Positions 3,502 through 57,790 of a stretch of 64,000 nt of DNA are shown here, one piece after another. Position 1 is the first letter of the stretch. The number at the start of each line of letters is the position of its first letter. The translations under genes were made by a program, and so were the position numbers. The stretch spans positions 24,125 to 88,124 of IMG/VR virus record IMGVR_UViG_3300042569_001383. One strand, written 5' to 3'. This DNA is from a virus. Lineage: Duplodnaviria > Heunggongvirae > Uroviricota > Caudoviricetes. A model generated the notes under the pieces. The model was not told the origin of the DNA. It did not search any database and saw nothing but the letters and a program-made list of their open reading frames with translations.

Positions 3502-3502
<1 letters not shown>
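3290..3502 (-). CDS. hypothetical protein
   Basis: 70 aa ORF immediately downstream of GroEL. Confidence 0.3.
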
Positions 3503-5133
<1,631 letters not shown>

Positions 5134-5163: not shown

Positions 5164-7362
5164 TTAAATTGCCTTTTCCAAGAACTTTCGATTAACTGTT
5201 TTGGATACATCGGTCATGTTCATTGGATTGATAAATTGTGCATCTGGTCCGTACATTGTTCTAAACTTATATGCCGTCGAGTGTGATGCGCCGCCTACAT
5301 GTATGAAATATGAAATAATATCAATTCCTAATTGTCGGTATGACGTAATAACTGATTTTGTAAATTGAACTCCATTATAACCATGTGCACATCCATTAAT
5401 AGAAGTTGGCTCGCCGTCTGAATAATTAATGAATATACATTCATCGCCTTTTGCGTCAATTCGTATATCAGATTCAATGCTTTTAAATGCTAATCCTTCT
5501 GGCGTGCATCCGAATATTTCTAGATATTTAAACAAGTTTCTAATTTTACTCATTTTATCGTGTGCGGAATCATATGCATATAACGTTATACATTTTTCTT
5601 TTAAATTTGAAAATTGTGCAGTTCCACGTAATGATATTTGTACACGTATGCCGGTTGTCATGGATGCTGCTTGTGCAATTGCTACTGCTGATGTGATTGC
5701 ATTTTGAAATTTTGTTCCACTCATTGATCCAGATGCATCAATTGAAATATGAATAAAATAATTTTTGAATCGATCTGTCACAATTTTATGAAATACATCA
5801 ACGTTATTGTATCCTAACTGCGCTACTAAACGTCTATCAATTTTACCAGATTGCAACCTAGTTGTTTTAAGAGTCTTATCTGAGTTTCTTACTTGCAATT
5901 TGCTTCCTAATTGTTTACCTAAAATAACACCTTGTGTAACTGCAGCTTCATTTTCTCGTATGCGTTTTGCATTACTCCAACCACCTGTTTTGTAGTTTTG
6001 ATATCCATTTATAAATGAAGCAGAGTCTCTAACAAACAATTCCGGAAGCGAACAAATAATAGGAGCTGTTAATTTTTTAATAACAATTGCATCTATAGGA
6101 TCACTTTTACCAGGACCAGTATATACCGTACGACTCTCGGTACCAGATTCTTTCAAAGCACGAACCATTGCGTTTTGAGTTTTCGATAACCTTCCATTTT
6201 TTGGTGTTTTACCTAATATGAAAGTGCGTTGCTTTTCAATTGCATTGTTTAGTTTATCGGCATCGCGTTGAGACATTGGCTCTGGTTCATCTTCTTCTTC
6301 TTCGTCTTCTTCGTCTTCTTCGTCTTCAACAGCTTCTAATTCTTCCTCAACATCAAATTCTTCGTCATCATTTACATTCGTTTCTTCCGTATCGTCACTT
6401 TCATCCCCGTCCGATGTATTTTGTGGTTGGGGAGACTCATTGGAATCTGATTCCATATCGTCTGCAGGATCCGATAGAACAAACTCGTTGTTATTATCAT
6501 CTTTATCAGATGGTTGCATTTGTTTAGTTTCATCGCTTTTCGGTTTCGATTTCGGTTTTTCTTCACGATTATTTGCCGTTGCTACTGCAAGTTTAATTAT
6601 CTTGAATAATTCACATGATAATAACAAAGCATCATTCGTTGAATGCAAACGATTAATATGTTTTAAATCAATCAATGTCCATATCGTTTCCAATTGTTTC
6701 AGCGTTTTAAGCTGACGATTTGGATTGGTAAAATTAATAATATGAAACATGTAATCATCCCAAGTTTCCTTGTTCTTTTGCTTGGTAGTTAATGCTTTAT
6801 CAATGATTTTGTCATTGAAGTATCGATTATACATGGCCTCATAATATACTCTGTATCCAGGTGCATTTGTGTATACATGATAATCGATTCTTCTATCTTC
6901 AATCCAATTCAATAAACCTTTAATATTATTAAGTTCCGAAGTAGTTAACAAATCACCGCATCCATGTTCTCTAGCAATATCAGCCATTTTCGTATCTTGA
7001 AGTGTCGACGTTGCATACCCATACGAAGTTTTAAACAAACTAAAATCGGTTAATGCAATATGCGAGCCTTCATGTAATGCTAAACCAACAGCTGGATCGA
7101 AATGTTTATCTTCTAGCTTTGTTCCGATAACAACGCGGTCACCATCGGTATAACTAGAATCATTGCTTTGAAACACAACAGGAATTTGCTTGCCGGTAAC
7201 AATTGTAACGAAATTACCAATTGCTCTTTGTGCTGCAGCCAATTTTGTTAAATCTAATTCAGATCCATTCTTAAAATTGGTATCAAAATCATACCAAAAG
7301 CTAGATGCAGATTTACTGGAAAACTTTGTAACTGATATTGGTTTACTATTTTGATTTGCCAT
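5164..7362 (-). CDS. CobT-like von Willebrand factor A domain protein with a long acidic low-complexity insert
   Basis: vWA MIDAS motif ISIDASGSMSG. Extended D/E-rich tracts (EEDEEDEEEEDEPEP). Lies directly downstream of an AAA+ MoxR/CobS-like ATPase, as in phage cobS/cobT pairs. Confidence 0.6.
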   Translation of the reverse strand: MANQNSKPISVTKFSSKSASSFWYDFDTNFKNGSELDLTKLAAAQRAIGNFVTIVTGKQIPVVFQSNDSSYTDGDRVVIGTKLEDKHFDPAVGLALHEGSHIALTDFSLFKTSYGYATSTLQDTKMADIAREHGCGDLLTTSELNNIKGLLNWIEDRRIDYHVYTNAPGYRVYYEAMYNRYFNDKIIDKALTTKQKNKETWDDYMFHIINFTNPNRQLKTLKQLETIWTLIDLKHINRLHSTNDALLLSCELFKIIKLAVATANNREEKPKSKPKSDETKQMQPSDKDDNNNEFVLSDPADDMESDSNESPQPQNTSDGDESDDTEETNVNDDEEFDVEEELEAVEDEEDEEDEEEEDEPEPMSQRDADKLNNAIEKQRTFILGKTPKNGRLSKTQNAMVRALKESGTESRTVYTGPGKSDPIDAIVIKKLTAPIICSLPELFVRDSASFINGYQNYKTGGWSNAKRIRENEAAVTQGVILGKQLGSKLQVRNSDKTLKTTRLQSGKIDRRLVAQLGYNNVDVFHKIVTDRFKNYFIHISIDASGSMSGTKFQNAITSAVAIAQAASMTTGIRVQISLRGTAQFSNLKEKCITLYAYDSAHDKMSKIRNLFKYLEIFGCTPEGLAFKSIESDIRIDAKGDECIFINYSDGEPTSINGCAHGYNGVQFTKSVITSYRQLGIDIISYFIHVGGASHSTAYKFRTMYGPDAQFINPMNMTDVSKTVNRKFLEKAI
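6290..6345 (-). repeat. short in-frame GAA/GAC-type simple repeat encoding the poly-acidic tract of the CobT-like protein
   Basis: Plus-strand ttcttcttcttcgtcttcttcgtcttcttcgtcttc. Confidence 0.5.
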
Positions 7363-7374
7363 GATTATATTTTA

Positions 7375-7389
7375 TTATATTATATGAAA
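7375..7389 (-). promoter_or_regulatory. motif A upstream of the CobT-like gene
   Basis: Plus-strand tatattatatgaaaa. Confidence 0.45.
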
Positions 7390-7426
7390 ATATTTATACG
7401 ATTCCAAGCAAAGTGCCATTTCCTAT

Positions 7427-8590
7427 TCAAAAAGGCATATCTTCGACGTTGGGCTCATTTGTATTGAAAATATCTTTTATTTCAGTGGCAACATGTTTCT
7501 GAATAATCTGTTTCACATAGGTTCTTTCGGAGTCAGCACCACCAGATGCATCAAAGAAAGGCAATACGGAAACTTCCATTGATTCTGACAAGGTAAAATC
7601 ATCTGCCAATAACTCACATACTCGAACTGTCATACGAGTTGATATCATTGTACTCAACTTGCCTTCTTCAGATTTCCATTCTTTTCTGGTTGCATCTGCA
7701 ATGTCAGCTACCGCATGAATCAATTCCGGTGAAACTCGGTCTTTATACCGTTTTGTTAACAATGATTCTTCTTGAGACAAAGAAAGGATATCAACTTCAA
7801 TGATTTCAAAACGATCCATTAATGCACGGTCCAATACGCGAGTCGATGTATACTCAGTACCGATATTTGCAGTGGCAATGAATGAGACACCGGATGCTAC
7901 ACGAATAGTTGGAGAATTAACATCTTCATCCAATCTCAAATAGCGTTGACCTTCATCTAAAACAGTCATCAATATGTTCCATGCTTCCGGATGCGCTCTG
8001 GATAACTCATCTAACAATATCACAGCAGAATCCGTTTGAATTGCTCTTACGAATGCCGATTCGTCAAATGTAGTTTCGCCGTCTTGGAAATGCGTGTTAC
8101 CAATAAGAGTTGCCCTAGGATCTTGCGTAGCTCCTAAGTTGAAATAAAAGAATGGACGATCCGTTGCTACCGGCAATGCTTTTGCGGCTTGAGTCTTACC
8201 ACAACCTGCAGGGCCAACCATCATGATGTTTTTTCCGCGGACTGCTGAACGAACTAGATACTTCCATTTAATGTCAGACATTTCTAAGTCATTTGGCTTA
8301 ATCTTGTATGAATTCTTAATCAATTCCAAAACAGGATCCATTTCTCTTTCCTCTTGCACTTGCAATACGGGTTGTTTATATTGTATTTGACGACCTGTAT
8401 CGTCTGTTGCTGGTACTCGACGTGCTCGACCCGTTGTATGGTCAAATACCAAATTTTGATTGTTGGTGTATGCCGCATTTATCATAACTGGCCTAAATAA
8501 CTCAGAAATGTCTGCTCCTGTGTTAACATCAATTACGGTTAAATAACCTGGCGTTGAATCATCAATTCTTCCTGTTTGTATCGTATTCAT
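7427..8590 (-). CDS. CobS-like AAA+ ATPase (MoxR family)
   Basis: Walker A MMVGPAGCGKTQAAKA, Walker B ILLDE, 387 aa. Paired with the vWA protein. Confidence 0.7.
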   Translation of the reverse strand: MNTIQTGRIDDSTPGYLTVIDVNTGADISELFRPVMINAAYTNNQNLVFDHTTGRARRVPATDDTGRQIQYKQPVLQVQEEREMDPVLELIKNSYKIKPNDLEMSDIKWKYLVRSAVRGKNIMMVGPAGCGKTQAAKALPVATDRPFFYFNLGATQDPRATLIGNTHFQDGETTFDESAFVRAIQTDSAVILLDELSRAHPEAWNILMTVLDEGQRYLRLDEDVNSPTIRVASGVSFIATANIGTEYTSTRVLDRALMDRFEIIEVDILSLSQEESLLTKRYKDRVSPELIHAVADIADATRKEWKSEEGKLSTMISTRMTVRVCELLADDFTLSESMEVSVLPFFDASGGADSERTYVKQIIQKHVATEIKDIFNTNEPNVEDMPF

Positions 8591-8601
8591 ATATCTTTTT
8601 T

Positions 8602-8617
8602 TATATTATATGAAAAA
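8602..8617 (-). promoter_or_regulatory. motif A upstream of the CobS-like gene
   Basis: Plus-strand tatattatatgaaaaa. Confidence 0.45.
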
Positions 8618-8634
8618 TATATACAAATTCAAAG

Positions 8635-9903
8635 TTATCTTATGATTTTTTTTGCCGTTCCATCGTCATATACTTCAAGCAATAGCCCCGATTCGGTTGG
8701 CATAGCTTCTTTCCCCAGCAAGTTTAGTACTCGCACTACATGGCGTATTTTGTTGGTGTTATCAATTAATATTGGACCGTATACTTTGTAATTTCCATCC
8801 ACATCATGTTGAACCAATTGATAGTAATTTAAACTGGCATTTGGTGCCGATTCGGTTACATGATATATGTTTTTTGTGTTTGAATTTGTAGCTGACGGAT
8901 GCGTGGCAATTGTGTTCCATGTTTCGCCATTTTGACTAACTTGTACTTCGAAATGCGAACTATTCCATTCTGATGCAGTTGCCCAATCGAATGCATTGTA
9001 TGAATCATGTGCATATCCTTCAAAATACATTAATTCTACCGGTAATGCCAAAATTTGATTGATTGTTGCTTGATATCCGTTCCATGTTCCAATATTGGAT
9101 ACATCGCTAGTAAATCGAATAGTTATTGCACTATTTGATTGAGTTGTTACATAGGATAAATTAGTAGCAGTTCCCGTTAATGTTGCTAATAATGGAGCCG
9201 ATGTGTTGAAGCCATCATATACATATAAATAATCATAATCAGTTTCAATGTTTAAACTAGAAATATTTAATTCTAATTTTTTAGTTGGATCTGTTGGTGT
9301 AAATGTTATGGTTTGTGATAAGTTATTTCCATATGTTTCAGCATAACTACCTTGATCTATAATTGTTATGGATTCATTAACTGTTTGTGAACAATTGCCT
9401 AGCATCGGAAGCAATGTGTTTTGCACGGTGTTTGTTGAAGTCCAAGACATATCATCAATATATCGTTCTTGTGCACCCGATGCACGAGTATCTCTGACTC
9501 TAACATATACGTTGCTTAATGCAGATAAGTTAATTGTATATTGTTGATATGTAGCAGTAATGCTTGTTATGGTACCTCGACTCGTCCATGTAGTTCCGTT
9601 AGGCGAAGTTTCAATAACACAGCTCCACGCCGTTGTGTTTGTACTACGACGATACCAAAATGAAAAAACACCTGGAGATGCAATTATTGGAGTTCGAATC
9701 CAATCGCCTGATCCATTAAAACCTATAGCACGTCCACCAGTTCGAGTAGGCGTTGTTACCGTGATCACGGAGTTTATTGTCCAGGTTCCTCCTTGGGTTG
9801 TTACTGTTGTAGTTCCGAAGCTTTCGTATACTTGATATCGACTGCATTGTGTATGTACCAATGTACTAAATAATATTGCAATGATTGCAATGTACCATTT
9901 CAT
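8635..9903 (-). CDS. secreted Thr/Ser-rich protein with a T9SS (Por) C-terminal sorting domain
   Basis: N-terminal signal peptide MKWYIAIIAILFSTLVHTQ. C-terminal ~70 aa (VRVLNLLGKEAMPTESGLLLEVYDDGTAKKIIR) fits the type A T9SS CTD pattern. Confidence 0.55.
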   Translation of the reverse strand: MKWYIAIIAILFSTLVHTQCSRYQVYESFGTTTVTTQGGTWTINSVITVTTPTRTGGRAIGFNGSGDWIRTPIIASPGVFSFWYRRSTNTTAWSCVIETSPNGTTWTSRGTITSITATYQQYTINLSALSNVYVRVRDTRASGAQERYIDDMSWTSTNTVQNTLLPMLGNCSQTVNESITIIDQGSYAETYGNNLSQTITFTPTDPTKKLELNISSLNIETDYDYLYVYDGFNTSAPLLATLTGTATNLSYVTTQSNSAITIRFTSDVSNIGTWNGYQATINQILALPVELMYFEGYAHDSYNAFDWATASEWNSSHFEVQVSQNGETWNTIATHPSATNSNTKNIYHVTESAPNASLNYYQLVQHDVDGNYKVYGPILIDNTNKIRHVVRVLNLLGKEAMPTESGLLLEVYDDGTAKKIIR

Positions 9904-10016
9904 TGTAAGTCCTTATTTTTATGTTTGTTTTTGCGATTGTATGTTTTTTTGCTTTTTTGCACGATGGGTCTAGTTGCTGCCCAAATTTCTTGCATGGTAA
10001 CTTCTATCTTCTTCAT
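9900..10016 (-). CDS. possible small basic protein (38 aa), below the ORF-track cutoff
   Basis: ATG at 10014-10016 preceded by promoter-like motif A at 10021-10036. Stop overlaps the next start as ATGA at 9900-9903. Translation MKKIEVTMQEIWAATRPIVQKSKKTYNRKNKHKNKDLQ. Confidence 0.2.
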   Translation of the reverse strand: MKKIEVTMQEIWAATRPIVQKSKKTYNRKNKHKNKDLQ

Positions 10017-10052
10017 ACTTATAAATATATGAAATAGTTTTGTAATTTCCAA

Positions 10053-41616: not shown

Positions 41617-41822
41617 AAACGATATATTCCGTAAAGATTGATTGCTATGATAACTAAACTTAAAACCATATGACTGATATTGTTAATATGCAAATCATAT
41701 ACAATCCAACCGATATCGCCTGATATCCAAGTTATCATTGCGGCTTTATTATATCCACGTGCATTAGCAACATAGCCAACTAATACCAATGCCGTGCTTA
41801 CCCATCCTAGAATTTCTATCAT
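41589..41822 (-). CDS. small membrane protein
   Basis: 77 aa with two hydrophobic helices. Confidence 0.3.
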   Translation of the reverse strand: MIEILGWVSTALVLVGYVANARGYNKAAMITWISGDIGWIVYDLHINNISHMVLSLVIIAINLYGIYRLWKNSLQKM

Positions 41823-42118
41823 GGTTTCAAATTTATCATTGCAATTTCATGTTCGCGAACTAGAATAAAATCGGTTGATCCTAATTGTACTTTCTTTTGT
41901 GAACCTAAATTACCAGAATAAATTTTAACTCGGTCTCCGGATTTTACAGTCATAGGAATTTTATTTCCGGTTTGAGTAAATAATCCATCTCCTACTGCAT
42001 AAACATCACATTCGATATAATCATCCAATGAATTCATAATGATAATACCACTTTGAGTTTTATCTTGTTTTTCTAATTGTTTTAGGAGTACTTGATCTCC
42101 AATTGGTTTCCATTCCAT
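41819..42118 (-). CDS. groES: co-chaperonin GroES (Cpn10, functional analog of T4 gp31)
   Basis: 99 aa. MEWKPIGDQVLLKQLE ... SGIII parallels GroES MNIRPLHDRVIVKR ... GGIVL. Mobile loop and roof hairpin spacing are conserved. Confidence 0.7.
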   Translation of the reverse strand: MEWKPIGDQVLLKQLEKQDKTQSGIIIMNSLDDYIECDVYAVGDGLFTQTGNKIPMTVKSGDRVKIYSGNLGSQKKVQLGSTDFILVREHEIAMINLKP

Positions 42119-57774: not shown

Positions 57775-57790
57775 ACAATTATATGAAAAA
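57775..57790 (-). promoter_or_regulatory. motif A variant immediately upstream of the PolA-like gene ATG
   Basis: Plus-strand acaattatatgaaaaa. Confidence 0.35.

What the first reader, a model, noticed from the sequence alone, without database searches (positions are those of the whole stretch)
8635..9903. Phage protein with a host-type T9SS C-terminal sorting signal
The 422 aa Thr/Ser-rich protein has a cleavable signal peptide and a C-terminal ~70 aa segment matching the Bacteroidota type IX secretion CTD. This implies it is exported through the outer membrane of the infected cell and probably anchored to the surface by the host T9SS. It may change the cell surface during infection, for example receptor masking, superinfection exclusion or adhesion. 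It is also the best host-range clue in the window. A 38 aa basic ORF (9900-10016) overlaps its start as ATGA and is preceded by promoter-like motif A at 10021-10036.
Basis: partly seen in the sequence, partly recalled or inferred. Interest (0 to 1): 0.6.

Follow-up and report, generated by a model that had tools for sequence, protein, structure and literature searches.

The report
Phage secreted adhesin, short Bacteroidota tail
An abundant freshwater phage carries a swappable accessory gene for a secreted, non-enzymatic binding protein whose C-terminal end copies a module used by Fluviicola-type Bacteroidota on their own secreted proteins; the module looks like a cut-down type IX secretion signal, but it fails every curated test for one.

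Summary
The 422 aa ORF (8635-9903, minus strand), its Thr/Ser richness, the ATGA overlap with a 38 aa ORF and the upstream motif are all real. The claimed "~70 aa match to the T9SS CTD" is not. TIGR04183, TIGR04131, NF033708 and PF18962 miss the protein, 64 relatives, 73 other proteins with the same tail, and 9-10 bacterial proteins with it.

The protein consists of:
- a signal peptide ending in an invariant Gln (the Bacteroidetes Q-rule);
- a MAM/CBM-like jelly-roll domain;
- a CUB domain;
- an Fn3-like "LPVEL" domain;
- a 37 aa, three-strand tail.

Fn3+tail is a terminal module on hundreds of different secreted proteins in phages and in Fluviicola/Crocinitomicaceae/Flavobacteriales genomes. 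All 120 bacterial loci that were hit carry Bacteroidota labels except one, probably mis-binned. The tail keeps counterparts of the two CTD motifs shown experimentally to matter (the Lβ3β4 glycine loop and the C-terminal Lys strand), but it has no room for the three-stranded half of the CTD sandwich.

The gene sits in a variable slot: filled in 17-20 of 61 related phages, with differing cargoes.

Most likely it is Sec-exported and then displayed on the surface through the host T9SS by a reduced, unmodelled CTD variant. That last step is inferred, not shown. Phage-encoded T9SS cargo has a published precedent. The host assignment is probable but contested.

The parts
10024..10052 (-). Promoter-like element (TTGGAA, 17 nt, TATATT) containing the core TTTCATATA (10034..10026). 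It probably drives the small ORF and the cargo ORF as one transcript.
   Evidence: One search found the sigma-70-type match; the core occurs 9x on the coding strand against 1x on the other, and 8/9 lie 16-28 nt upstream of start codons (binomial 9e-8); the region is conserved upstream of the small ORF in more than 25 related phage loci. The full 16-mer is not enriched.
9900..10016 (-). 38 aa highly basic ORF (MKKIEVTMQEIWAATRPIVQKSKKTYNRKNKHKNKDLQ). It is a conserved backbone gene, and its stop codon overlaps the cargo start codon (ATGA).
   Evidence: conserved at 55-95% identity in at least 36 related IMG/VR loci, whether or not the cargo slot is filled.
9850..9903 (-). Signal peptide, residues 1-18 (MKWYIAIIAILFSTLVHT). 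Predicted signal peptidase I cleavage before Q19 (Q-rule).
   Evidence: Q19 and C20 are invariant in 64 relatives; hydrophobicity peak; helix 2-15 followed by a low-pLDDT linker. Q-rule: PMC5837995, PMC10653852. The cleavage site is inferred, not measured.
9409..9849 (-). N-terminal jelly-roll domain (residues about 19-165) of the MAM / CBM / gingipain cleaved-adhesin type. No catalytic motifs were found.
9049..9393 (-). CUB domain (residues about 171-285). The invariant C171 may pair with C20.
8749..9048 (-). Fn3-fold 'LPVEL...W.TASE.NS..F....S.DG..W....YYRL.Q.D.DG' domain (residues about 286-385).
8638..8748 (-). 37 aa C-terminal tail (IRHVVRVLNLLGKEAMPTESGLLLEVYDDGTAKKIIR), with three strands. 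It is the candidate reduced T9SS sorting signal.
   Evidence: N 97%, G 100%, second G 98%, Y 92%, D 94%, G 97%, K 88% across 238 tails; it always ends at the protein C-terminus; weak, collinear similarity to classical CTDs at the Lβ3β4-like and C-terminal strands; no curated CTD model hit.
8605..8632 (-). Second copy of the promoter-like element (TTGAAT, 16 nt, TATAAT; core at 8615). It lies between the cargo stop codon and the AAA ATPase gene and marks the downstream edge of the insertion slot.

Best explanation
The ORF is an accessory ('moron'-type) gene in a variable slot of an abundant phage group with genomes of about 145-175 kb. It encodes a secreted, non-enzymatic binding protein.

Proposed pathway:
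1. The Sec system exports it. Signal peptidase I cleaves before the invariant Gln19, as the Bacteroidetes Q-rule predicts. The new N-terminus would then be cyclised to pyroglutamate.
2. The mature protein is a string of binding-type beta-sandwich domains: a MAM/CBM-like jelly-roll, then CUB, then an Fn3-like domain.
3. It ends in a 37 aa, three-strand tail. The Fn3+tail pair is a portable C-terminal module. The putative hosts (Fluviicola/Crocinitomicaceae-type Flavobacteriales) and many phages attach it to hundreds of different secreted cargoes.
4. The tail has counterparts of the beta3-loop-beta4 glycine motif and of the C-terminal Lys-bearing strand. These are the two elements shown to be essential for recognition of T9SS type A CTDs. 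The tail has too few residues for the three-stranded half of the CTD sandwich.
5. Most likely, therefore, the tail is a reduced, lineage-specific T9SS sorting signal. It would take the protein across the outer membrane of the infected cell for display or release, where its lectin- or adhesin-like domains bind a glycan or protein ligand.

Shown: the domain architecture, the terminal position of the module, its restriction to Bacteroidota, and the gene's accessory status.
Inferred: the cleavage site, T9SS dependence, surface anchoring, and any effect on infection.
For: Architecture:
- CUB.
- Jelly-roll N-domain.
- Fn3 fold plus a three-strand tail, pLDDT 83-87.

Export signal:
- Invariant Q19 after a conserved hydrophobic leader in 64/64 relatives.
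- Many unrelated cargoes with the same tail also have leaders ending in [SA]-Q.
- The Q-rule is Bacteroidetes-specific (PMC5837995, PMC10653852) and has already been seen in P. gingivalis phage proteins (PMC10367356).

Sorting-module behaviour:
- 134 of 160 fetched sequences have one Fn3 domain plus the tail at the exact C-terminus, on proteins of 130-1,500 aa with diverse N-terminal parts.
- Their cargo domains are typical T9SS cargo: GBD_T9SS_assoc, T9SS-dependent M36 protease and DNase, GEVED, CHU_C-associated Ig.

Cellular counterpart:
- At least 120 bacterial loci carry the tail motif, all Bacteroidota-labelled except one 6.8 kb MAG contig.
- The Fn3+tail form is concentrated in Fluviicola/Crocinitomicaceae/Taishania/Brumimicrobium/Flavobacteriales, including the isolate F. 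chungangensis MAH-3.
- These proteins are 29-41% identical to the phage module up to the last residue, and a few also cover CUB.
- Fluviicola taffensis is described as a gliding Bacteroidetes strain in the T9SS/gliding prediction paper (PMC10515386).

Link to type A CTDs:
- In cellular proteins the same Fn3 domain is followed by a classical PF18962 CTD.
- Real tails score above shuffled and reversed controls against an HMM of those CTDs (median 2.8 bits against -0.7 and -1.1). The alignments are collinear at 'v.veiydlsGrlv' and 'psGiYii'.
- These correspond to motifs Lβ3β4 and C-t., shown essential in RgpB and PorU. The HBP35 signal maps to its last 22 residues (PMC11285876).

Accessory status:
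- The slot upstream of the AAA ATPase gene holds a short-tail gene in 17-20 of 61 syntenic loci, with different cargoes.
- It is empty in 30 loci and holds other ORFs in 9.
- Flanking genes are 70-90% identical where the cargo is 47% identical.

Other support:
- A 71% identical homologue in an unrelated 527 kb phage-like contig lies next to a CHU_C (T9SS type B) protein.
- Precedent: phage-encoded T9SS type A cargo in 'Cryophage' (PMC7468147).
Against: - No curated T9SS CTD model (types A, B or C) matches the protein, 64 relatives, 73 other short-tail proteins or 9-10 bacterial short-tail proteins.
- hhalign of the tail against classical CTDs gives only a 16-column match, probability 6.7%.
- The tail has three strands in 37 aa, not a seven-strand 3+4 sandwich. 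PMC11285876 stresses that an intact, folded CTD is needed.
- The sequences used are related to each other, so its P-values overstate the significance.
- No experiment links this tail to T9SS in any organism, as far as the library searches showed.
- Host uncertainty: the nearest cultured relative, Microcystis phage Mel-JY01, shares 18 collinear ORFs at 30-70% identity.
- The recurrent promoter-like motif is TTG...TATAAT-like, and TAnnTTTG is not enriched.
Confidence: 0.55

Rival explanations
1. The protein is Sec-exported, but the Fn3+tail module is not a T9SS signal. It would be a structural end-cap, or a module that binds the cell envelope or a glycan. The protein would then act in the periplasm, or be released only at lysis, for example to bind debris, polysaccharide or neighbouring cells.
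For: - All curated CTD models fail.
- The tail is too short to form a CTD sandwich.
- No structural match to solved CTDs.
- hhalign is not significant.
Against: - Strict positioning at the extreme C-terminus on hundreds of unrelated cargoes is what a sorting signal does, not a binding domain.
- Near-invariant N..G and terminal K positions coincide with the two functional CTD motifs (PMC11285876).
- Distribution is restricted to the phylum that has T9SS.
- The cargo domains are typical T9SS cargo.
Confidence: 0.25
2. The host is not a Bacteroidota organism (for example a cyanobacterium, as for Mel-JY01). The gene would then be a horizontally acquired passenger, and its Bacteroidota signals would not operate in the real host.
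For: - The closest isolated phage by PolB (45% identity) and by 18 collinear ORFs infects Microcystis.
- The recurrent promoter-like motif is TTGGAA, about 15 nt, TTTCATATAAT, not the Bacteroidota TTTG/TAnnTTTG type, and TAnnTTTG is not enriched.
- There are no tRNAs to help.
Against: - Within this phage group the slot has been filled repeatedly with different cargoes. All carry the same Bacteroidota module and Q-type leaders, which implies continuing function and a Bacteroidota gene pool.
- Mel-JY01 lacks the module.
- Core identity of 30-70% is compatible with hosts in different phyla.
- Leaders are A-rich, with 64% A at -3 and only 26% SD-like motifs.
- GC is 34.7%.
- A 71% identical homologue lies next to a CHU_C protein in another phage.
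Confidence: 0.15
3. The protein is a virion-associated decoration or adhesin (Ig-like, Fn3 and CUB domains on capsid, tail or fibres) and is not a secreted host-surface protein.
For: - Weak Pfam similarities to FNIII-A_GpJ (31/64) and Phage_spike_2 (10/64).
- Fn3 and Ig-like domains are common on virions (general knowledge).
- The T1 and T5 tail-tip proteins appear among the Fn3 structural neighbours.
Against: - A conserved cleavable-type signal peptide with an invariant Gln.
- The gene is absent from about two thirds of close relatives.
- It lies among replication and auxiliary genes, about 45 kb from the baseplate-like ORFs.
- The same module is found on cellular secreted proteins.
Confidence: 0.05
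4. The protein is a lipoprotein: signal peptidase II cleaves before the invariant Cys20, and the protein is lipid-anchored.
For: Cys20 is invariant directly after the hydrophobic leader.
Against: - Position -1 is an invariant Gln, which does not fit a lipobox (G/A/S at -1; established knowledge).
- Other cargoes with the same module have leaders ending in SQ-T or AQ-T with no Cys.
- C171 is also invariant and may be a disulfide partner.
Confidence: 0.04

Closest known systems
T9SS type A C-terminal sorting domain (TIGR04183 / PF18962; e.g. RgpB, HBP35, PorU, PorZ of P. gingivalis)
   Same: - Extreme C-terminal position on Sec-exported proteins of Bacteroidota.
- A hydrophobic-x-(N/D)-x-x-G-x-x-V loop motif, and a final strand with a conserved Lys (PMC11285876).
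- Follows the same Fn3-like domain that precedes classical CTDs in cellular proteins.
   Different: - About 37 aa and three strands, instead of 58-108 aa and a 3+4 seven-strand sandwich.
- Lacks the 'YPNP' N-terminal part and about 17 internal HMM positions.
- Not detected by any curated model.
- No experimental link to T9SS.
'Cryophage' T9SS cargo genes (Bellas et al. 2020, PMC7468147)
   Same: - Phage-encoded secreted proteins with Bacteroidota C-terminal sorting features.
- The genes are hypervariable between phage variants.
   Different: - The Cryophage proteins carry recognised type A sorting domains on enzymes (an endoglucanase, a GH39) and on a PA14-domain protein.
- Here the tail is non-canonical and the cargo is purely binding-type.
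- This phage lineage shares its replication module with Mel-JY01 and more distantly with T4-like cyanophages, and it carries GroEL/GroES- and CobS/CobT-like genes.
Q-rule signal-peptide proteins of P. gingivalis phages (PMC10367356)
   Same: Phage proteins whose predicted signal-peptidase I cleavage exposes an N-terminal Gln, read there as adaptation to Bacteroidota secretion.
   Different: - No C-terminal sorting module was reported there.
- Those are temperate phages of an oral pathogen.
Fluviicola/Crocinitomicaceae secreted proteins with Fn3+short tail (e.g. F. chungangensis MAH-3, loci L076 and L166)
   Same: - Same C-terminal module, at 29-41% identity up to the last residue.
- Some also have MAM-like or CUB domains.
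   Different: - Cellular genes with other cargoes.
- Uncharacterised, and also missed by the T9SS models.
Phage moron-encoded envelope proteins (lambda Bor/Lom, T4 Imm/Sp; from general knowledge)
   Same: A non-essential phage gene whose product is targeted to the host envelope during infection.
   Different: - No sequence or fold relationship.
- Those are small lipoproteins or membrane proteins with shown exclusion or serum-resistance roles.
- No function has been shown here.

Membership tests
T9SS type A CTD (TIGR04183 / PF18962) | Significant match to the curated HMMs | tested here: not met
   No hit at E<=10 for the protein or for 64 relatives. 0 of 73 other short-tail proteins hit, while 7 of 7 positive controls did. 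0 of 9-10 bacterial short-tail proteins hit.
T9SS type A CTD (TIGR04183 / PF18962) | Autonomous seven-strand 3+4 Ig-like beta-sandwich of about 58-108 residues (PMC11285876) | tested here: not met
T9SS type A CTD (TIGR04183 / PF18962) | Motif Lβ3β4 with a conserved Gly, and a C-terminal strand with a conserved Lys (PMC11285876) | tested here: inconclusive
   The pattern is present and highly conserved (N 97%, G 100%, K 88%). It aligns collinearly with classical CTDs, and real tails score above shuffled ones. However, hhalign gives a probability of only 6.7%.
T9SS type A CTD (TIGR04183 / PF18962) | Extreme C-terminal position on a protein with a Sec signal peptide | tested here: met
T9SS type A CTD (TIGR04183 / PF18962) | Occurs in organisms that possess a T9SS | tested here: inconclusive
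   119 of 120 bacterial loci with the tail motif carry Bacteroidota labels. T9SS gene content of those genomes was not checked, and the phage's host is unknown.
T9SS type A CTD (TIGR04183 / PF18962) | T9SS-dependent secretion, with CTD removal by PorU or surface attachment | not testable with these tools
   This needs genetics and proteomics.
T9SS type B (TIGR04131 / PF13585 CHU_C) and type C (NF033708) sorting domains | Match to the curated HMMs | tested here: not met
   No hit for the protein or its relatives. The CHU_C hits include two controls where they overlap the type A CTD; the third hit was not traced. NF033708 hit 2 of 80 members at only E=0.015.
CUB domain (PF00431) | HMM score above the gathering threshold, and the CUB beta-sandwich fold | tested here: met
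Fibronectin type III fold | Seven-strand Fn3 topology | tested here: met
Bacteroidetes Q-rule substrates (signal peptidase I, N-terminal pyroGlu) | Gln at position +1 of the predicted signal peptidase I site | tested here: inconclusive
   Q19 is invariant directly after the hydrophobic leader. The cleavage site is predicted by eye, not by SignalP or mass spectrometry.

The most novel reading that the evidence does not exclude
The Fn3+37 aa tail is a previously unmodelled, minimal class of T9SS sorting signal. It would be a 'half-CTD': it keeps only the four-strand sheet that carries the two recognition motifs and leans on the preceding Fn3 domain in place of the missing sheet. On this reading it is native to Crocinitomicaceae/Fluviicola, with a related Fn3-less form on BspA-type surface proteins of Prevotellaceae. 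Several phage lineages have adopted it as a plug-in cassette that lets them swap secreted cargoes in a fixed genomic slot.
Probability: 0.35. Interest if true: 0.75.

Novelty: new variant of a known kind. Interest (0 to 1): 0.55.

Why it matters
- **Blind spot in T9SS cargo prediction.** If the short tail is a working T9SS signal, current pipelines based on TIGR04183, TIGR04131 and NF033708 miss a whole class of cargo in freshwater Flavobacteriales, in Prevotellaceae and in their phages. The minimal requirements for T9SS recognition would also be smaller than the seven-strand CTD.
- **Phage biology.** It would show an abundant environmental phage group routinely using a host secretion system to decorate infected cells with interchangeable binding proteins. 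That would be a tractable handle on superinfection exclusion, aggregation or particle attachment.
- **Host assignment.** It would give a gene-content marker for host phylum in a phage group that has no cultured Bacteroidota representative.
- **If it is not a T9SS signal.** The module would still be an uncharacterised, very widespread terminal module that needs an explanation.

Tried and rejected
- **A 'virus-only tail'.** My first degenerate DNA pattern gave 0 hits in 596 Gb of bacterial and archaeal genomes against 45 in IMG/VR. I rejected this reading once the tail logo showed the pattern was only about 14% sensitive, because a Lys was placed at the wrong position. A redesigned pattern found at least 120 Bacteroidota loci.
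- **Sequence route to solved CTDs.** A PDB profile search gave nothing below E=0.4.
- **GroEL as a host probe.** The output was saturated by more than 8,000 phage homologues.
- **tRNAs:** none found.
- **TAnnTTTG promoters:** not enriched on the coding strand.
- **The full 16-mer 'motif A':** not enriched. Only its 9-mer core is.
- **A second copy of the module elsewhere in the window:** none.
- **megablast of the region against phage records:** no match.
- **Literature on Mel-JY01:** nothing held in the library.
Full report
**Observation**

The ORF at 8635..9903 on the minus strand exists and encodes 422 aa. It is Thr/Ser-rich: 23.9% T+S, against 12.6% for the window's proteins. Its N-terminus is M-K, then 14 hydrophobic residues, then H-T-Q-C. 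A 38 aa basic ORF (9900..10016) ends in a TGA that overlaps the start codon as ATGA, and TATTTCATATATTTAT lies at 10021-10036.

The window is clearly a large phage. All genes are on one strand and GC is 34.7%. It has a replication module like that of T4-like phages, GroEL/GroES-like and CobS/CobT-like genes, a glycosyltransferase block and baseplate-like ORFs.

That model, the other NCBIfam T9SS models (TIGR04131, NF033708) and Pfam PF18962 all give no hit at E<=10. This holds for the protein and for each of 64 full-length relatives.

What does hit is a CUB domain at residues 171-270. It scores 33 bits against a gathering score of 21.4 and is found in 64/64 relatives. There are also faint F5/8-type-C and choice-of-anchor J signals.

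**Architecture**

AlphaFold2 models were made of the whole protein (pLDDT 83) and of the last 143 residues (pLDDT 87). They show:
- a leader helix (residues 2-15) followed by a low-confidence linker;
- a beta-rich N-domain (about 25-165);
- CUB (about 171-285);
- a seven-strand domain (about 290-381);
- three further strands (389-393, 407-412, 417-421).

So the supposed '~70 aa CTD' is really a 100 aa Fn3-like domain plus a 37 aa tail.

**The family and the signal peptide**

More than 290 relatives were found, all metagenomic. One is named 'CUB domain [uncultured Caudovirales phage]'. Versions of about 425 aa match throughout. Versions of about 560-670 aa carry extra domains (GEVED, Fn3 and others) between CUB and the C-terminal module.

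Q19 and C20 are invariant, and every complete member has [hydrophobic leader]-[ST]-Q-C. A Gln exposed by signal peptidase I is the Bacteroidetes 'Q-rule' (PMC5837995, PMC10653852). It has already been noted in P. gingivalis phage proteins (PMC10367356). The cleavage site here is inferred. SignalP was not available.

**The C-terminal module behaves like a sorting module**

A profile of the last 143 residues matched 105,828 cluster representatives, 589 of them below 1e-30. The fetched sequences fall into two classes:
- 134 of 160 have one Fn3-like domain plus the tail ending at the protein's last residues. These proteins are 130-1,500 aa long, have unrelated N-terminal parts, and nearly all have signal peptides, many ending in [SA]-Q.
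- 22 have 3-10 tandem copies of the Fn3-like domain and no short tail. Most of these end in a classical-looking type A CTD.

All seven such controls that I scanned hit PF18962, including a Chitinophaga horti protein. None of the 73 short-tail proteins scanned did. The cargo domains on short-tail proteins are typical of T9SS cargo: GBD_T9SS_assoc, T9SS-dependent M36 peptidase and endonuclease families, GEVED, and CHU_C-associated Ig.

**Who encodes the tail**

My first degenerate DNA pattern for the tail found 0 sites in 185,579 bacterial and archaeal species genomes and 45 in IMG/VR. All 45 were genuine C-terminal tails. That suggested a virus-only feature. The tail logo then showed the pattern was only about 14% sensitive.

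HMMs confirmed 117 of them. All are labelled Bacteroidota except a 6.8 kb contig binned as 'Kuenenia'. They fall into two groups:
- About 52 loci, mostly Fluviicola, Crocinitomicaceae, Taishania, Brumimicrobium and unclassified Flavobacteriales, have the same Fn3+tail architecture. They include the isolate F. chungangensis MAH-3 and a complete Fluviicola chromosome. They are 29-41% identical to the phage module up to its last residue, and a few also cover CUB.
- About 60 loci from Prevotella, Hoylesella, Muribaculaceae and related Bacteroidales carry large proteins without the LPVEL domain. Among those scanned were BspA-type LRR proteins and an Omp28-like protein. They end in '...YNLNGQRV.....GINIVKYSDGTTRKVVVK'.

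None of the ten bacterial examples tested hits any T9SS model.

**Relation of the tail to classical CTDs**

hhalign of 238 tails against 20 classical CTDs gives only a 16-column local match, with P = 0.005 and probability 6.7%. An HMM of those CTDs scores real tails above shuffled and reversed ones. The medians are 2.8, -0.7 and -1.1 bits, and 3.4% of shuffles reach the real median.

The alignments are collinear. 'I.IDN...kvvkiiNmmGQeV' aligns with 'v.i.g....vqveiydlsGrlv', and 'GIYIIVYDDG' aligns with 'psGiYiiqldkg'. About 17 HMM positions between them and the N-terminal 'YPNP' part are missing. The tails are related to one another, so the nominal P-values are inflated.

Mizgalska et al. 2024 (PMC11285876) report the following:
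- CTDs are 3+4 sandwiches.
- Only the Lβ3β4 loop (I-F-D-M-N-G-R-R-V in RgpB, with one conserved Gly) and the C-terminal strand with a conserved Lys are conserved and needed.
- Both lie on the four-strand sheet.
- The HBP35 signal maps to the last 22 residues.

The tail's near-invariant positions (N 97%, G 100%, K 88%) coincide with these two motifs. The missing residues correspond to the three-strand sheet.

One caveat cuts the other way. 15 of 102 experimentally verified T9SS cargoes match none of the three CTD models (PMC10515386). HMM failure therefore does not exclude T9SS export.

**Genomic context**

The gene is accessory. Locus L005/L169 is collinear with the window, with flanking genes 70-90% identical but the cargo only 47% identical. 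L167 carries a 98.6% identical copy.

Among 61 informative loci retrieved through the neighbouring AAA ATPase gene, the position directly upstream of that gene holds:
- a short-tail gene in 17 loci (20 loci have one somewhere on that strand);
- nothing in 30 loci, where a backbone gene abuts;
- an unrelated ORF in 9 loci;
- no ORF of at least 80 aa within 400 nt in 5 loci.

The cargoes in filled slots differ. Some are the CUB family at 47-99% identity. Others are unrelated 350-390 aa or 666 aa proteins that share only the module.

The 38 aa ORF is a backbone gene, conserved in at least 36 loci regardless of slot state. The cargo gene is inserted between it and the ATPase gene.

**The upstream motif**

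The full 16-mer is not enriched: 10 matches with up to 3 mismatches, against 9.1 expected. Its core, TTTCATATA, is a different matter:
- It occurs 9 times on the coding strand and once on the other.
- 8 of the 9 lie 16-28 nt upstream of start codons (P about 9e-8).
- The aligned sites read TTGGAA or TTTGAA, then about 15 nt, then TTTCATATAAT.
- The copy at 10034 is conserved in related phages.
- The cargo ORF has no copy of its own and is probably co-transcribed with the small ORF.

**Host**

For a Bacteroidota host, probably Crocinitomicaceae/Fluviicola-like:
- the Q-rule leader;
- the Bacteroidota-only module;
- repeated cargo swapping within that gene pool;
- low GC;
- A-rich leaders, with 64% A at -3 and only 26% SD-like motifs;
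- a 71% identical homologue in an unrelated 527 kb phage-like contig, directly followed by a CHU_C (T9SS type B) protein.

Against:
- The nearest isolated relative is Microcystis phage Mel-JY01, with PolB at 45% identity and 18 collinear ORFs at 30-70%. It lacks the module.
- The promoter-like motif is not the TTTG/TAnnTTTG type.

I rate a Bacteroidota host at about 0.75-0.85.

**Comparison with what is known, and verdict**

Phage-encoded T9SS cargo was reported for 'Cryophage' (PMC7468147), with recognised type A domains and hypervariable genes. The idea is therefore not new.

Three things are new here:
- a non-canonical short tail that all curated models miss, in phages and in cells;
- its scale and modular use;
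- a defined insertion slot in a very abundant phage group, for which the GroEL search returned at least 8,000 homologues.

The protein is not a member of the TIGR04183 family by the tests run. It may still work like one. I file it as a new variant of a known kind, with interest 0.55.

Noticed in passing
window 9900-10016 (-): The 38 aa, very basic ORF (MKKIEVTMQEIWAATRPIVQKSKKTYNRKNKHKNKDLQ) is a conserved backbone gene. It is present in at least 36 related phage loci at 55-95% identity. In phages with an empty slot it lies directly upstream of the AAA ATPase gene. Its function is unknown.
   Followed up: partly
window, minus strand, core starts at 57788, 44388, 32671, 31449, 10034, 8615, 7389, 3289: A recurrent promoter-like element: TTGGAA or TTTGAA, about 15 nt, then TTTCATATAAT, lying 16-28 nt upstream of eight start codons. 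The core occurs 9x on the coding strand against 1x on the other. It resembles a TTG/TATAAT promoter more than the Bacteroidota TTTG/TAnnTTTG consensus, so it may be phage-specific.
   Followed up: partly
window 8590-10052 and loci L167-L231: The position between the small ORF and the AAA ATPase gene is a variable insertion slot. It is filled with short-tail secreted proteins of differing cargo in 17-20 of 61 related phages, empty in 30, and holds other ORFs in 9.
   Followed up: yes
L049, L054, L056, L061, L099, L107 and about 55 other Bacteroidales loci: Large Prevotellaceae/Muribaculaceae proteins (those scanned included BspA-type LRR and Omp28-like proteins) end in '...YNLNGQRV.....GINIVKYSDGTTRKVVVK'. 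This is the same short tail without the LPVEL Fn3 domain. TIGR04183 and PF18962 do not recognise it either.
   Followed up: partly
L001 9380-13406 (527 kb metagenomic contig): A huge phage-like contig carries a 71% identical homologue of the cargo gene. A rhomboid-family gene lies upstream, and a 706 aa protein with PF13585 CHU_C (T9SS type B sorting domain) lies immediately downstream. Two 'uncultured phage' records of 635 kb and 462 kb (LR745206, LR756500) also encode the Fn3 module (30-36% identity), and the LR745206 match runs to within three residues of the C-terminus.
   Followed up: no
window 3502-5118, 41819-42118, 5164-8590: The phage encodes GroEL-like and GroES-like proteins and a CobT-like vWA / CobS-MoxR-like AAA ATPase pair. 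The GroEL search returned at least 8,000 homologues; the 120 listed are at least 80% identical, on contigs up to about 175 kb. This is a very abundant uncultured phage group.
   Followed up: no
window 20673-54444 versus L247 (Microcystis phage Mel-JY01, PP395634.1): 18 ORFs of the replication and glycosyltransferase region are collinear with Mel-JY01 at 30-70% amino-acid identity (PolB 45%, one 618 aa ORF 70%). This cyanophage is the nearest cultured relative, although the cargo gene points to Bacteroidota.
   Followed up: partly
L105 (contig CALPRR020000137.1, labelled Candidatus Kuenenia stuttgartiensis MAG): A 6.8 kb contig in a Planctomycetota MAG carries two Fn3+short-tail genes of the Fluviicola type. 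This is most likely a binning error.
   Followed up: no
window 8635-9903: residues C20, C95, C171: C20 and C171 are invariant across 64 relatives, whereas C95 is present only in the closest subgroup. This suggests a conserved disulfide tying the mature N-terminus to the start of the CUB domain. There are twelve N-x-[ST] sequons in the protein.
   Followed up: no
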